DNA of 64,000 nucleotides from Bdellovibrio sp. (GTDB lineage: Bacteria > Bdellovibrionota > Bdellovibrionia > Bdellovibrionales > Bdellovibrionaceae), in NCBI GenBank assembly GCA_036676395.1, contig JAKFCY010000002.1, positions 992,001 through 1,056,000 of the forward strand. The letters are read 5' to 3'. Each line of letters begins with the position of its first letter. Position 1 is the first letter of the stretch. The notes under the pieces are model-generated. The model was not told the origin of the DNA, did not search any database, and saw only the letters and a program-made list of their open reading frames with translations. Below are positions 22,708-32,909 of this stretch, piece after piece. The translations under genes were made by a program, and so were the position numbers.

Positions 22708-22829
22708 AGTTGTCTACAGAGTTGACAGTCCTGTTGCTTTTTCCTGTTAACAAGAAAAATCACCCAATAAACAAAACCCATGATATTTTTCTGCCTCACC
22801 AAACCCCAATCCCCTTTATGGAGGCTCTA

Positions 22830-23885
22830 ATGAACAAGAAAAATATCATTAATATCTCGAAAGCTATTAGCTTAAGTGCTGCATTGGTCGTAAGCTTTTC
22901 AGTGCAAGAAGCTTCGGCTCAATCATCAAAATCAAAACCGAAGTACTTAGTTATTCAAAACGTTGCGACAGAAAAAACTCGGGTTTATGAACTTTGTTAC
23001 ACGGCTCCGGGCTGCGCGCATAAAATGGTTTTTGAAACTGTGATGTTAGTTGGTAAACGTAACGAAGAAAGCCAGCAAACTATTCTGGGCACCTATCGTA
23101 TCAGTCAGTGGGTAAAATTCTATCAAGATAATGCTAAAAACTATCCAAGCTGGTATGACCCAGCATTACCAATGCCACCCAAAGCAGACAAAGCGGCTAC
23201 AAAATGGTTTAAAGATGATTACATGCCAAACGGCGGTGAAATGCGCGGAGCCTTTGGTTGGTATGCAGCTTTAGCTGAACCAAATGCTTTCGGTCAATGG
23301 ATGCATGGAACAATCGGCTGGGGAGCGGACGAAGATAAATTCATCAACCGCGCTAAAAAAGGATTCTTTTCTTTATTCGCAGATTTACGTTCACATGGTT
23401 GTACTCGTCATGAAAACAGAGCGATCGCTTATCTTCAGCATTTAGTGCCAGCGGGCACTCCGCTAATTAAAGTTTACGCGGAAGAAGTGGCTGATGACCC
23501 AAGCTTATCGCGTTATGCTGATCAAAAGAATCAATTCTTATTCAACTACGCTTTAACAAAAGCTGATGTGCGTTCAAGTAAAGCGTCTAGTTCTGAATAC
23601 TCTGTGACAATGGCCAAAATAGCTAAAGGCGAAATTAAGCAAGAAGATGTGTTAGAGCAAGGCAGTTACTTAGTTGACCGTGTTCCAACAATTAATGCGA
23701 TCAACACTAAAAAATCTTCTAAATCTGGTGAATCTGGAGATGTGTATGAAGTGGGTCGTGAAAACTTTCGCGGTACATATTCAGTAGATACAGGAAGATT
23801 TGCTAATTACGTTCACCCAACAAAATTAAAAGTTGGCGGAGACCAGTCTTTATTAACTTTACCAGATCTTGTTAAGACGAAATAA
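22830..23885 (+). CDS. L,D-transpeptidase (YkuD family), secreted
   Basis: GGAGG RBS, ASA signal peptide, WMHGT...RSHGCTR catalytic motif. Confidence 0.85.
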   Translation: MNKKNIINISKAISLSAALVVSFSVQEASAQSSKSKPKYLVIQNVATEKTRVYELCYTAPGCAHKMVFETVMLVGKRNEESQQTILGTYRISQWVKFYQDNAKNYPSWYDPALPMPPKADKAATKWFKDDYMPNGGEMRGAFGWYAALAEPNAFGQWMHGTIGWGADEDKFINRAKKGFFSLFADLRSHGCTRHENRAIAYLQHLVPAGTPLIKVYAEEVADDPSLSRYADQKNQFLFNYALTKADVRSSKASSSEYSVTMAKIAKGEIKQEDVLEQGSYLVDRVPTINAINTKKSSKSGESGDVYEVGRENFRGTYSVDTGRFANYVHPTKLKVGGDQSLLTLPDLVKTK

Positions 23886-26744: not shown

Positions 26745-26796
26745 AGACAAAGTCTAGTTTGTCCACGCTTAACTTTGGACAAAGCTATGTTGTCCA
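26745..26796. promoter_or_regulatory. tandem operator-like array (GACAA..TTGTCCA x2)
   Basis: GACAAAGTCTAGTTTGTCCA and GACAAAGCTATGTTGTCCA start 32 bp apart; inner arms TTTGTCCA-N10-TGGACAAA. Confidence 0.6.
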
Positions 26797-26891
26797 TAAA
26801 TCAAAAAAAGCAGCGCTTGTTTCAATTTACAAACTTCGCAAGATCAGCGAAACACCAGTCATCCACAAAAAACAATATCAAAGGAGATATT

Positions 26892-27359
26892 ATGAACAAA
26901 CTTATCGCAATGATCGCTTTATTAGCTGCAACAACTGCATCTGCATATACAGCTTCAACTTCTTGGGAGACTTTAGAAAATGATCCAAGAATTCAAATCG
27001 ACGCTCCAACTGTATTCATGGGTCACGCTGTTGATTACATGTTCACATGCGTTGACGGTGCTAACTTACGCACGATCAAGCCAGTTAAACAATGTGAAAC
27101 TATTTACATTGGTAAAAATCAATCTAAAGAAGTTTGCAAAGGTTCAAAATACTTATCAACTCCAATCAACTACACACGCACTTCTTGGGATTGCAAATTC
27201 ACTGGTGGCCGTGGTGATCACCGCGTTTGTGAAGATAAAGTGATCTCTGGAACTTACCCACTTTCTGTAATGGTTAAAGTTTCTAAAGTTATGGGTGGTA
27301 AAAACGACCGTGTAGAGTTTTTATTTAACAAGCAATTTAACGTACCAAATTGCCACTAA
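26892..27359 (+). CDS. secreted 6-Cys hypothetical protein
   Basis: AAGGAG RBS, ASA signal peptide, codon usage resembling highly expressed genes. Confidence 0.8.
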   Translation: MNKLIAMIALLAATTASAYTASTSWETLENDPRIQIDAPTVFMGHAVDYMFTCVDGANLRTIKPVKQCETIYIGKNQSKEVCKGSKYLSTPINYTRTSWDCKFTGGRGDHRVCEDKVISGTYPLSVMVKVSKVMGGKNDRVEFLFNKQFNVPNCH

Positions 27360-27383: not shown

Positions 27384-27423
27384 AAGCGCTCTAGAGTCAC
27401 CCCTCCGACCTAGGGCGTTTTCT
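27384..27423 (+). terminator. intrinsic terminator
   Basis: AAGCGCTCTAG...CTAGGGCGTTTT hairpin. Confidence 0.6.
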
Positions 27424-27478
27424 CGTTGTGCCTGATGAATTGTTAAGATAATCAGAAACTTCAAAATTTAAGGTGAAA

Positions 27479-28273
27479 ATGAATATTAACGTCGATACCA
27501 ATTCGAACGCTATGGCTAGCTCTATCCCTGATCAAGTATCACGGGATATCGAAGCTTATTTATTGCGTTTTAAAGACCCGAAAAAGGGTTTGAATATGTT
27601 AGCGACAAAAGCGCAAATTCACGTAAAAACTTTAAATCGTCTGCGCGAAAAAATTCACACACCAACTTATTCTACTTTATATAAACTTTATTCTTGTCTG
27701 TTAGATACGCGCATTATCAATGATCTGATCGAAAAAGCGCCGCCGGTCATTCGCGAAAGAATTAAAAGCGCTGATCCGCAATTAAAATCTTCGCCGTTAA
27801 ATCGTTATCATTTGGATTTAGAAACTGATCTGCAAAAAGATCCCTGTTTTGCCGAACTGTATGTTTTGGCTGAAACAAGACCTTTCAGCACTCACTACGT
27901 TGAACAAAGATTTGGTTCTTACGGGCTTGAGACTTTAAAACGCATGATCGATCAAAAAGTGATTCGTCCTTTAGGCAATGGTCTTTTTGGTCAGGGCGAA
28001 GTGAGCTCTAGTTTTTCTGCCGAGACGATTAAATCTGTAGGTTTACGTTTAACAGAGCGCTTTTTAAAACCAGCCAACGCTGATTTAGATGATGCCAATT
28101 ACATGTCGCTTTATTTCGAGTCGGTCAGTGCAGAAACTTACAAAGAATGGGTCATGATCGAAGAGCGCGCTTTTAAAGAGCGCATGAAATTATTAGAAAA
28201 ACCAAACGCCAAAGGCAGCATTCCTGTTTTTGCATTTACTGTTATTGATACCCTATTGGAGAACGAACAATGA
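27479..28273 (+). CDS. XRE-like HTH + winged-helix protein (TIGR02147/DUF4423-like architecture)
   Basis: LNMLATKAQIHVKTLNRL...PTYSTLYKL HTH; central wHTH-like segment; about 265 aa ending in a beta strand. Confidence 0.6.
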   Translation: MNINVDTNSNAMASSIPDQVSRDIEAYLLRFKDPKKGLNMLATKAQIHVKTLNRLREKIHTPTYSTLYKLYSCLLDTRIINDLIEKAPPVIRERIKSADPQLKSSPLNRYHLDLETDLQKDPCFAELYVLAETRPFSTHYVEQRFGSYGLETLKRMIDQKVIRPLGNGLFGQGEVSSSFSAETIKSVGLRLTERFLKPANADLDDANYMSLYFESVSAETYKEWVMIEERAFKERMKLLEKPNAKGSIPVFAFTVIDTLLENEQ

Positions 28274-28407
28274 AACTTTTTATCACCCTAAGTTTAACAG
28301 CATTACTTTTAATTATGACCGCAGCTTCTGCTAACGCTGGTTCTAAAAACGGTGGTGGCTCAGCTGGTGGTGGCGGAAGAAACAACTTCGTACCTGTTGG
28401 TCGCTAG
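28270..28407 (+). CDS. 45-aa secreted Gly-rich micro-peptide
   Basis: MKLFITLSLTALLLIMTAASANA|GSKNGGGSAGGGGRNNFVPVGR; GGAG RBS; ATGA overlap with the regulator stop. Confidence 0.75.
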   Translation: MKLFITLSLTALLLIMTAASANAGSKNGGGSAGGGGRNNFVPVGR

Positions 28408-29242
28408 TATTTCTTTTCAGTTAGTCTTTCTTACGGCAATCACCATGGTGGCTTTCGCAGCCAACTCTGTTTTTTGCCGCTTAGCTCTTGCAGATCCTAA
28501 TAATAGCCCGATCAGTTTTACTTTGGTTCGCTTGGCCGCAGGCGCTATTGCCCTGTTATTTTTATTTATTAAATATCGCAAAGAAGAGCCCATCACTTTT
28601 AGTAAAAACATATTGCTGGCTCCGGTGATGTTGTTTTCATATGCGCTGTTTTTTTCGCTAGCCTACGTTCGCATCAGCGCAGGCACCGGGGCTTTGATTC
28701 TATTTGCCAGCGTTCAGTTGACGATGATTATCACAGCCTTGGCCAGAGGCCAGAAACTAAATATGAATGAATGGTTTGGCTTTAGTTTAGCTGCGGGCGG
28801 TTTGATTTATTTATTATTGCCTAGTCTTGATATGCCACCATTGCTTTCGATGTTAGCAATGACCATTGCTGGTGTTTCTTGGGGAATTTATTCTTTACTT
28901 GGCCAGAAGTCTAAAAATCCATTTTTATCGACTGCACGAAACTTTTTATTGATCTTACCTGCTGCCGTTGTTTATTTAGCGGTCGACTCTGTTCATTTAA
29001 CGAATCAGGGTTTGCTTTGGGCGGTGTTATCAGGAGCTCTGACTTCAGGAATGGGTTATGTGCTTTGGTATGTGGTTTTGCGAAAGCTTGCTACAAGTAC
29101 GGCGGCGATTGTGCAACTAAGTGTACCAGCGATAGCTGCATTCGGTGGAGTTTTATTCTTAGGTGAAATTATTCATCTTCGATTAATTATTGCCAGCCTT
29201 CTGATTTTTTCTGGAATTACGTTAAAACTTTTCAGTAAATAA
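28397..29242 (+). CDS. EamA/DMT family transporter (start uncertain)
   Basis: AFAANS..CR.AL, FFSLAY, GALILF, SG.GY.LWY, QLSVP; about 10 TM helices. Confidence 0.85.
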   Translation: MVASISFQLVFLTAITMVAFAANSVFCRLALADPNNSPISFTLVRLAAGAIALLFLFIKYRKEEPITFSKNILLAPVMLFSYALFFSLAYVRISAGTGALILFASVQLTMIITALARGQKLNMNEWFGFSLAAGGLIYLLLPSLDMPPLLSMLAMTIAGVSWGIYSLLGQKSKNPFLSTARNFLLILPAAVVYLAVDSVHLTNQGLLWAVLSGALTSGMGYVLWYVVLRKLATSTAAIVQLSVPAIAAFGGVLFLGEIIHLRLIIASLLIFSGITLKLFSK

Positions 29243-31044: not shown

Positions 31045-31524
31045 TTATTTAGTGACTAATTTTTTCTCAGGAACTGTATCCCATTTACCGCGCGCATCTA
31101 CGAAAATAATGCACTCACTACCTGCTGCACACATTGTTGCATGAGGTTGTTTTTTCTTAAACGAGAAAAATGACCCAGGCGATAAACGACGTTCTACTCC
31201 GTCAACAGTTAATACAAAGTCTCCTTTGATCACTGTGACAAAATTATCTGCGCTGTGATGATGCAGAGGTGCCGAAAAGCCAGCGTCAAATTTCATAAAT
31301 GAATGATGCGCGCCTTTAGTAGAATCACCTTCAACCACTGCCATCTGTAAGCCCGGAAACTCTGCTACGGCTTGCCATTTGATGTCTTTGGCTTCCATAA
31401 AGACTGCCTTCGCCATCGACTTGGCTGGATTCATTTTGCTGGTCTCCATTTTAGTCGCATCTTTAGCTGCCGCAGTGAATGAAAATAGTGTTAATAAAAT
31501 TGTAATTAAAGAAATACGTTTCAT
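31045..31524 (-). CDS. secreted cupin (DUF4437-like), paralog 1
   Basis: Signal peptide; PLHHHS..VIKG..L.PGSF..PH.T.C. Confidence 0.85.
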   Translation of the reverse strand: MKRISLITILLTLFSFTAAAKDATKMETSKMNPAKSMAKAVFMEAKDIKWQAVAEFPGLQMAVVEGDSTKGAHHSFMKFDAGFSAPLHHHSADNFVTVIKGDFVLTVDGVERRLSPGSFFSFKKKQPHATMCAAGSECIIFVDARGKWDTVPEKKLVTK

Positions 31525-32465: not shown

Positions 32466-32909
32466 TTAGTTGTTCGTAATTAAACTTTTCTCCATCATCA
32501 CATCCCATTTTCCGCGAACGTCTACAAAAAGGATACATTCTGCACCCGGAGCACAGACCGTTGTGTGTTTCTGTTTATTCTTATAGGTGAAAAAAGATCC
32601 CGGCGTTAAACGGTGTTCGGTGCCGTCCATCGTTATAATCATAGTTCCGGCAATAACAGTAGCATATGTTACACTGCTGTGATGATGCATAGGCACGCTA
32701 ACACCAGCGTCAAACTTGTGCATAGCATGGTGATTCCCTTTTTTCAGATCACCTTCGACCACAGCGACCTGAATGCCCGGCGTCTCTGGTACGGCTGTCC
32801 ATTTCATGTCTTTGGCTTCTATGAATACGGCGTTTGAATCTTTCATTTTCGCGAAAGTGCTGATTGAAAAGATGGTGATTAAGATTGAGATTAGTGAAAT
32901 ACGTTTCAT
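32466..32909 (-). CDS. secreted cupin (DUF4437-like), paralog 2
   Basis: Clearly homologous to 31045-31524. Confidence 0.85.
   Translation of the reverse strand: MKRISLISILITIFSISTFAKMKDSNAVFIEAKDMKWTAVPETPGIQVAVVEGDLKKGNHHAMHKFDAGVSVPMHHHSSVTYATVIAGTMIITMDGTEHRLTPGSFFTYKNKQKHTTVCAPGAECILFVDVRGKWDVMMEKSLITNN

What the first reader, a model, noticed from the sequence alone, without database searches (positions are those of the whole stretch)
27479..28407. Candidate peptide-signalling pair: HTH regulator coupled to an unannotated secreted Gly-rich micro-peptide
Seen: a 45-codon ORF (28270-28407) with its own SD overlaps the regulator stop (ATGA). It encodes a textbook Sec signal peptide (ASANA cleavage) and only 22 mature residues, GSKNGGGSAGGGGRNNFVPVGR, and its end overlaps an EamA transporter gene. 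The upstream protein has an XRE-like HTH, a wHTH-like segment and a C-terminal domain resembling the TIGR02147/DUF4423 family, which is expanded in Bdellovibrionota and uncharacterised. Known: regulator + adjacent exported short peptide is the layout of Gram-positive RRNPP/arbitrium systems. Inference: an analogous, non-TPR peptide-sensing or secretion-monitoring system in a Gram-negative predator that controls the upstream secreted gene. Best candidate for an undescribed system here.
Basis: partly seen in the sequence, partly recalled or inferred. Interest (0 to 1): 0.82.

Follow-up and report, generated by a model that had tools for sequence, protein, structure and literature searches.

The report
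Predator regulator with co-evolving exported peptide
In predatory Bdellovibrio-type bacteria, an unstudied DNA-binding protein is encoded together with a real, conserved exported mini-peptide whose sequence changes in step with the regulator, which suggests an undescribed peptide-sensing switch unrelated to the known Gram-positive ones, although binding has not been shown.

Summary
The micro-ORF (28270-28407) is a real gene. It is coupled to the regulator in all 24 closest loci and is under purifying selection (dN/dS 0.08-0.26). It belongs to a module found across Bdellovibrionota: tandem palindromic operator, secreted gene X, leaky terminator, regulator (XRE-HTH + wHTH + Kfla_6221-like domain; distant TIGR02147/DUF4423 relative, no TPR), then an exported precursor bearing a G-x-G-[GD]-x-x-G-G tag (116 of 146 loci). 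In 90 loci the tag heads a longer protein, often an X paralogue. The mini form arose by losing that body and kept only signal peptide plus tag, sometimes duplicated. Tag position 2 co-varies with regulator residue 213: Gly pairs with F/V/I in 37 of 37 loci, and A/S/T/V/I/F pair with small residues in 53 of 53. All 4 switches fall on the same tree branches (family-wise p about 0.002). This points to direct contact. Best model: the tag is exported, clipped, re-imported, and switches the regulator on X's operator (0.5). EamA is a non-conserved neighbour and probably does not overlap. Not found in the papers searched.

The parts
26746..26763 (.). Candidate operator site 1, palindrome GACA-N10-TGTC
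   Evidence: A tandem pair 31-32 bp apart is present in 17 of 24 short-peptide loci. The pattern occurs in 40 of 146 upstream regions against 8.2 in shuffles.
26776..26796 (.). Candidate operator site 2 (TGGACAA-N7-TTGTCCA), three helical turns downstream of site 1
   Evidence: The exact GGACAA-N7-TTGTCC occurs once in the genome.
26826..26855 (+). Conserved TTTACA (-35-like) hexamer followed 17 nt later by GAAACAC; probable activator-dependent promoter of X (inferred)
   Evidence: Alignment of relatives. The sigma-70 scan found no consensus site here.
26892..27359 (+). Gene X: 155-aa secreted beta-rich protein with conserved cysteines and no known family; lacks the tag; probable regulated target
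   Evidence: AF2 pLDDT 88.5. No Pfam or PDB match (best Z 2.5).
27384..27424 (+). Terminator-like hairpin with a short U tract between X and the regulator (probably leaky)
   Evidence: -19.9 kcal/mol, z -4.1. Hairpins of -13 to -24 kcal/mol in most of 26 relatives examined, weak in several.
27479..28273 (+). Regulator, 264 aa: XRE-HTH (about 14-98), wHTH (about 110-180), Kfla_6221/DUF4423-like C-terminal domain; no TPR, no signal or membrane segment
27872..27874 (+). Codon E132: second co-varying position (D/E/N/T when tag position 2 is Gly)
   Evidence: 3 of 4 switches coincide.
28115..28117 (+). Codon F213: main co-varying position, between conserved N207 and E214
28258..28261 (+). Shine-Dalgarno GGAG inside the regulator 3' end
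   Evidence: Sequence; GGAG at the same place in most close relatives.
28270..28407 (+). Micro-ORF: signal peptide (aa 1-23) plus 22-aa mature peptide
   Evidence: Homologues of 41-42 aa are annotated as hypothetical proteins in Bdellovibrio records.
28351..28371 (+). Core tag GGGSAGG (aa 28-34), the candidate ligand
   Evidence: GGG[STA][AS]GG is present in 24 of 24 short ORFs of this clade and duplicated in L004-L006.
28445..29242 (+). EamA transporter; lineage-specific neighbour, not part of the module
   Evidence: PF00892; 2 of 30 loci; start inferred.

Best explanation
A one-component peptide-sensing switch. SHOWN (computationally): the regulator has two DNA-binding folds and a C-terminal domain; it is translationally coupled to an exported precursor carrying a Gly-rich 7-8-residue tag; tag and regulator residue 213 change together; a tandem palindrome tracks the regulator family and sits just upstream of the promoter-like element of gene X, or of the regulator itself where X is absent. 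INFERRED: the precursor is exported by Sec; signal peptidase and periplasmic or extracellular proteases release the tag (here about N-GGGSAGGGGR, between K26 and R37); an Opp/Dpp-type permease brings it back; it binds a pocket lined by E126, E132, K185, G188, N207, F213 and E214; the liganded dimer activates X from the tandem operator; read-through of the hairpin makes more regulator and peptide, a positive loop. The switch would report cell density or confinement, for example inside the closed prey cell. In the ancestral form the tag rides on an X paralogue; this clade dropped the body and kept a dedicated pro-peptide.
For: Coupled signal-peptide-plus-Gly-tag ORF in 116 of 146 regulator loci; 96 of 116 start at or before +2 of the regulator stop; the tag starts by residue 26 in 81 of 93. 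The tag is kept while bodies vary or vanish: 26 short, 90 long, with independent shortening in L027 and L158. The tag is repeated in 14 of 116, as Phr autoinducers are (PMC5199041 passages). dN/dS 0.08-0.26. Co-variation: top MI-APC pair z 5.9 on 48 representatives; Gly with F/V/I in 37 of 37 and A/S/T/V/I/F with A/S/C/T in 53 of 53; 4 of 4 tag switches share a branch with a size change at 213, best of 1080 column tests, branch-length-weighted family-wise p 0.002. Only columns 213 and 132 stand out, which argues against plain linkage. In held-out loci, 8 of 9 core-clade loci fit on the non-Gly side. Regulators without a coupled tag gene have lost the E126, K185, G188, N207 and W224 consensus. 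In this genome, Gly-rich mature N-termini occur in 13 of 22 secreted ORFs next to TIGR02147-like genes against 74 of 843 elsewhere. Four peptide-binding-protein matches over cut-off and four oligopeptide ABC ATPase matches exist in the genome. Operator.
Against: There is no binding, processing, import or expression evidence. The co-variation rests on only 4 switches; treekit's independent-pairs test had 3 supported pairs and gave p 0.25. The trait was chosen after seeing the MI result, and five other tag traits were also tried, which raises p to about 0.01. Five rows of doubtful register were dropped and 18 more (including the GEVTGAG class) were never in the set. Three rows with D or W at tag position 2 pair with large residues, as does held-out L192. 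The held-out set held no Gly case in the core clade, and a distant locus with a poly-Gly tag (L214) aligns N at 213. Co-variation shows contact at best, not where it happens. A Gly/Ser 7-mer carries little information for a specific signal, and most partners are long proteins, unlike Phr/PapR. About 30 regulators work without a coupled tag gene. The enrichment criterion was set after seeing the examples, and signal peptides were called by a rough rule.
Confidence: 0.5

Rival explanations
1. Cytoplasmic export monitor. The regulator binds the tag on the precursor before it is translocated, so precursor that backs up when Sec is slow switches the regulator. No release or re-import is needed.
For: It explains the co-variation, the tight translational coupling and why the tagged partner is often a paralogue of the secreted target X (34 of 46 loci). 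It resembles FlgM/ExsE-type logic (recalled).
Against: The tag sits at or near the predicted signal-peptidase site in most loci, and conserved acidic residues would suit a free amino terminus (inference). Lys/Arg-spaced repeats look like processing units. Many paralogues with different tags in one genome are more than one export monitor needs.
Confidence: 0.18
2. The tag is an envelope sorting or attachment signal read by another machine, for example an N-terminal Gly attached to peptidoglycan by an L,D-transpeptidase. The regulator simply controls the operon, and the mini form is an anchored peptide or decoy.
For: Outer-membrane proteins are attached to peptidoglycan through N-terminal Gly or Ala (10.1101/2021.02.21.432140 passages). 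Many tags begin with Gly at the predicted cleavage site. A YkuD protein is encoded at 22710-23885.
Against: Mature peptides also start with Ser or Arg, or carry the core 4-5 residues in (L001, L003, L018-L024). X, the likely abundant product, has no tag. A general machine would not co-vary with residue 213 of each neighbouring regulator.
Confidence: 0.15
3. The tag does bind the regulator but as an inhibitor or in another role: a repressor-releasing or antagonist peptide, or a report of the proteolytic fate of the X-like partner rather than of cell density.
For: The same co-variation. Nothing here fixes the sign of regulation; the operator's place upstream of a -35-like hexamer only suggests activation.
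Against: No positive evidence separates it from the best explanation. The constitutive-looking mini form has no body whose fate it could report.
Confidence: 0.12
4. Relic or linker. The micro-ORF is the leftover 5' end of a lost secreted gene, and the Gly run is just a flexible linker after the signal peptide.
For: The short clade is nested among long precursors with a near-identical start (L026, L082).
Against: dN/dS 0.08-0.26; length held at 39-49 aa across two genera; tag duplicated after the truncation; residue-specific co-variation.
Confidence: 0.05

Closest known systems
RRNPP systems (Rap-Phr, PlcR-PapR, NprR-NprX, Rgg/ComR) of Gram-positive bacteria
   Same: Short exported pro-peptide gene directly downstream of a cytoplasmic receptor; intragenic duplication of the putative signal; many paralogous pairs with different peptides (PMC5199041 abstract and passages; PMC5007282 passages).
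   Different: No TPR domain; the receptor is XRE-HTH + wHTH + alpha/beta domain. The host is Gram-negative. The tag usually heads a 100-230-aa secreted protein that is often paralogous to the target. The peptide is Gly-rich. No function has been tested.
TIGR02147 (Fsuc_second) / Pfam DUF4423 (PF14394), function unknown
   Same: Same length and domain order; hhalign 96.6%, E 5.5e-10 over 218 columns; ESM Atlas neighbours at 0.92-0.93 carry DUF4423; a B. bacteriovorus orthologue is named 'DUF4423 domain-containing' by UniRef (P0186); this genome's TIGR02147 genes are also flanked by Gly-tagged secreted genes.
   Different: 0 of 150 family members match TIGR02147 or PF14394 at E <= 0.01 among the families listed; the window gene is not among 19 TIGR02147 matches in its genome; 13% identity in the profile alignment. 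It is a sister family.
Kfla_6221 from Kribbella flavida (PDB 4g6q), function unknown
   Same: Best structural match to residues 109-259 (Z 9.4, rmsd 6.5, 143 aligned; Foldseek prob 0.96, E 0.15).
   Different: Lacks the N-terminal XRE domain; 8-10% identity; no ligand known from the entry title.
HetR-PatS of cyanobacteria (recalled, not tested)
   Same: Gram-negative, non-TPR transcription factor controlled by a short peptide.
   Different: No structural match of note (HetR 4hri at Foldseek rank 42, prob 0.20). As I recall, PatS has no Sec signal peptide and is not coupled to hetR.

Membership tests
RRNPP | C-terminal TPR peptide-binding domain | tested here: not met
   The AF2 model (pLDDT 90.6) shows wHTH plus an alpha/beta domain. 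ComR matches only through the N-terminal HTH (5fd4, residues 8-98, Z 6.3). No TPR Pfam among the families listed for 150 members.
RRNPP | Short ORF with secretion signal immediately downstream, same strand | tested here: met
   Met in this clade (24 of 24); family-wide the partner is long in 90 of 116.
RRNPP | Receptor-peptide co-diversification | tested here: met
   Residue 213 versus tag position 2; it rests on 4 switches.
RRNPP | Processed peptide re-imported by an oligopeptide permease | not testable with these tools
   Only the presence of SBP_bac_5 and oligo_HPY genes was checked.
RRNPP | Peptide binds the receptor and changes its activity | not tested
TIGR02147/DUF4423 | Score over the curated HMM cut-off | tested here: not met
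TIGR02147/DUF4423 | Homology over full length (HTH + wHTH + C-terminal domain) | tested here: met
   hhalign 96.6%, E 5.5e-10; Atlas.
Secretion-monitoring arrest peptides (SecM/MifM/VemP type; recalled) | Leader ORF upstream of the regulated secretion gene | tested here: not met
   The ORF is last in the module and the gene after it is not conserved.
LDT-anchored proteins (N-terminal Gly/Ala) | Free N-terminal Gly or Ala on the mature chain | tested here: inconclusive
   Gly in many, Ser or Arg in others, by eye; cleavage sites were not predicted by a tool.

The most novel reading that the evidence does not exclude
The TIGR02147/DUF4423 superfamily and this sister family are an independently evolved class of cytoplasmic peptide receptors in Gram-negative bacteria. 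Each reads a Gly-rich tag clipped from the N-terminus of its own exported partner. This would give predatory Bdellovibrionota up to about 17-20 parallel, orthogonal channels per genome for sensing density or confinement inside prey and for timing secreted-protein expression.
Probability: 0.4. Interest if true: 0.92.

Novelty: categorically new. Interest (0 to 1): 0.8.

Why it matters
Reviews treat re-imported peptide signals as a Gram-positive trait (PMC5007282 passages). A non-TPR receptor family doing this in a Gram-negative predator phylum would be a new signalling class and would give the large DUF4423/TIGR02147 expansion its first function. How Bdellovibrio senses that it is inside prey and times its secreted proteins is an open question (own knowledge). 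DUF4423 proteins of B. bacteriovorus already show stage-specific abundance: Bd3700 rises from 3.9 to 6.6 at 4 h, and Bd3758 peaks at 1 h (PMC12546842 supplement). This locus makes the idea cheap to test, since ligand (a 7-10-mer), pocket residue (213), operator (GACA-N10-TGTC pair) and reporter gene (X) are all named, and an orthologue exists in the laboratory species (P0186/P0032).

Tried and rejected
RNA runs: no RNA holder listed, so nothing can be said on expression. The search for related loci with the deep alignment gave no usable seed; the genome search was used instead. Longer or fused forms of the regulator: none among 8000 candidates, weak evidence. Gene X: no Pfam, PDB-sequence, Foldseek, VIA or Atlas match; this shows neither a new fold nor a function. 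Sigma-70 promoter and terminator scan: counts at chance level. Co-variation at five other tag traits gave best nominal p of 1e-4 to 1e-3, about the null median of 6e-4, so rejected. K101 and E147 versus tag Asp failed the independent-pairs test. EamA as exporter or importer: rejected (2 of 30 loci). An attempt to find the B. bacteriovorus locus tag of the orthologue in papers failed. Literature searches: TIGR02147 0 papers; DUF4423 1 paper, a table row only; listings showed nothing on this system (titles and abstract starts only). Subscription journals are not covered, and supplement files 5 and 6 of PMC12546842 could not be searched. The search of earlier findings by place, sequence and long word list returned nothing.

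Full report
Observation. The ORF at 28270-28407 is as described: 45 codons, a GGAG at 28258-61, an ATGA overlap with the regulator stop, a signal-like N-terminus ending ASANA and a 22-residue Gly-rich tail. The closest named regulator homologue is from Bdellovibrio sp. qaytius (89%), and all named hits are Bdellovibrio. The claimed overlap with EamA is probably an artefact of a GTG start: an in-frame ATG lies at 28445, and the nearest relative has a stop inside the match to the extended protein. EamA follows in only 2 of 30 loci.

The small gene is real. A single-protein search found regulator homologues in 39 of 182 genomes of the family. In the 30 best loci a signal-peptide plus Gly-rich ORF overlaps or abuts the stop every time: 39-49 aa in 25 and 116-166 aa in 5. 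The core GGG[STA][AS]GG is present in 24 of 24 short ORFs of this clade, with all Gly codons and both Ser codon families used. Pairwise dN/dS is 0.08, 0.26, 0.15 and 0.13 in four groups covering 22 of the 24. Some databases already call the 41-42-aa homologues 'hypothetical protein'.

The regulator. It has no Pfam or NCBIfam hit. A profile search found 408 representatives at E <= 0.001. AF2 on a 150-row alignment gave pLDDT 90.6. Fold searches place an XRE-HTH first, then a wHTH and a C-terminal domain most like Kfla_6221 (4g6q: Z 9.4, rmsd 6.5, 143 aligned). There is no TPR domain. Residues 203-217 and 241-264 are mostly confident but unpaired in the monomer model, which suggests strands completed by a dimer or a ligand (inference). 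The genome has 19 TIGR02147 matches that do not include this gene, but profile comparison links the two families (96.6%, E 5.5e-10), as do Atlas neighbours.

The module. The family occurs in 156 of 401 sampled genomes of the phylum (150 of 419 matches were listed, and I fetched 100 regions from the lists). Of 146 distinct regulators, 116 have a coupled exported ORF with a Gly-rich tag (26 short, 90 long) and 30 do not. Most of the 30 fall in one subclade that has lost the E126, K185, G188, N207 and W224 consensus. Short forms are nested among long ones and arose separately in L027 and L158. The tag consensus is G-x-G-[GD]-x-x-G-G, with a GE[VLFI]TGAG class. It starts by residue 26 in 81 of 93 precursors and is repeated in 14 of 116. 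Upstream usually lies a secreted gene X without the tag; where both could be compared, the tagged partner's body is an X paralogue in 34 of 46 loci. X has a confident beta-rich model and no structural match. A hairpin (z -4.1) separates X from the regulator. Two palindromes GACA-N9/10-TGTC, 31-32 bp apart, precede a conserved TTTACA hexamer before X in 17 of 24 short-peptide loci. The pattern occurs in 40 of 146 upstream regions against 8.2 in shuffles, and sits before the regulator itself where X is absent (L027, L060, L072, L129). In this genome, secreted ORFs next to TIGR02147-like genes have Gly-rich mature starts in 13 of 22 cases against 74 of 843 elsewhere (rough rule, set after seeing examples, and the window's own ORF is counted).

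Co-variation. Among 98 pairs with the main tag class, mutual information picked tag position 2 against regulator residue 213 (z 5.9 on 48 representatives). After dropping 5 rows of doubtful register, Gly pairs with F/V/I in 37 of 37; A/S/T/V/I/F pair with A/S/C/T in 53 of 53; D, D and W pair with F, L and I. The window has Gly with F213. On the tree, all 4 Gly/non-Gly switches fall on branches where 213 changes size class, including a reversal in L025 and a lone switch in L171. This is the best of 1080 column tests, with residue 132 second. A branch-length-weighted null gives family-wise p 0.002, about 0.01 allowing for six tag traits. Against this: the independent-pairs test had only 3 supported pairs (p 0.25). 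In 44 held-out regulators, the 9 of the core clade gave 8 non-Gly tags with A213 (one tag read by eye) and one Trp with V213. No Gly case was among them, and distant clades use other tags or do not follow the rule (L214). The result favours direct contact but does not prove it.

Mechanism. I judge direct regulator-tag contact about 0.75-0.8 likely in total, and the specific route of export, clipping, re-import and activation of X with positive feedback 0.5. Peptide ABC components exist in the genome. Gene order and intragenic repeats parallel Rap-Phr (PMC5199041, abstract and passages). Rivals are cytoplasmic export monitoring (0.18), an envelope sorting or peptidoglycan-attachment tag (0.15; 10.1101/2021.02.21.432140 passages), inhibitory or fate-reporting binding (0.12) and a relic (0.05).

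Known or new. It works like RRNPP by layout but is not a member (no TPR). It is a sister of TIGR02147/DUF4423, below the HMM cut-offs. Searches found no paper naming TIGR02147 and one listing DUF4423 proteins in tables (PMC12546842; passages and supplement rows seen). Five further searches showed nothing on this system in their listings. PMC5007282 (passages) describes oligopeptide signals as the Gram-positive mode. PMC2797640 and PMC11318664 (passages) had no bearing. Earlier AI notes of this scan describe what appears to be the same module in another genome and TIGR02147 genes with a different tag; these are leads, not support. HetR-PatS, FlgM/ExsE and arrest peptides are recalled, not looked up.

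Verdict. A real, selected, undescribed regulator-peptide module with specific evidence of co-evolution; its signalling role is plausible and directly testable but unproven. Interest 0.8.

Noticed in passing
G000 TIGR02147 loci L031-L046: About 16-17 paralogous regulators; most have a coupled or divergent secreted gene whose mature start is Gly-rich (GGDRVNNGGG, GPVFIGNGGN, TGNEGNG types), and one has the motif internally. Possibly a set of parallel channels.
   Followed up: partly
L127-L155: A regulator subclade with no downstream tag gene; instead a 220-330-aa secreted gene lies directly upstream, in three cases (L140, L142, L151) starting with GGE[ATF]SGG.
   Followed up: partly
L156-L168: GE[VLFI]TGAG tag class, usually twice per precursor about 30 residues apart; L158 is a 53-aa two-repeat mini form; L157 and L166 keep only an internal variant.
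   Followed up: partly
L204-L226: Distant regulators coupled to secreted genes with other N-terminal tags (QEGYGG / QDGYEN / QTGYNN; GNFSGSG; Gly runs followed by RP). L205 is a 41-aa short form of L204.
   Followed up: no
L004-L006: Gene X is tandemly duplicated and the tag is duplicated within the peptide in the same three loci.
   Followed up: no
L077, L080, L088, L089, L131, L137, L145: Whole modules occur as tandem pairs about 2.3-2.5 kb apart; in L077, L080, L088 and L089 the two copies carry different tags.
   Followed up: no
window 26892-27359: X family: elongated beta-rich secreted protein with invariant C53 and C154 and no fold match (best Z 2.5); possibly a new fold or a fibre subunit.
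   Followed up: partly
window 22710-23885: Secreted YkuD (L,D-transpeptidase-like) protein 3 kb upstream; linkage to the module was not tested.
   Followed up: no
window 31045-31524 and 32466-32909 (- strand): Two similar secreted cupin-like proteins (annotation by eye) 1.4 kb apart, probably a local duplication.
   Followed up: no
G000:C2:1802333-1813489 and C3:103919-104572: Secreted ORFs with tag-like starts (GPETSGGG on a 3718-aa protein; GEVGGSNG) that are not next to a detected regulator.
   Followed up: no
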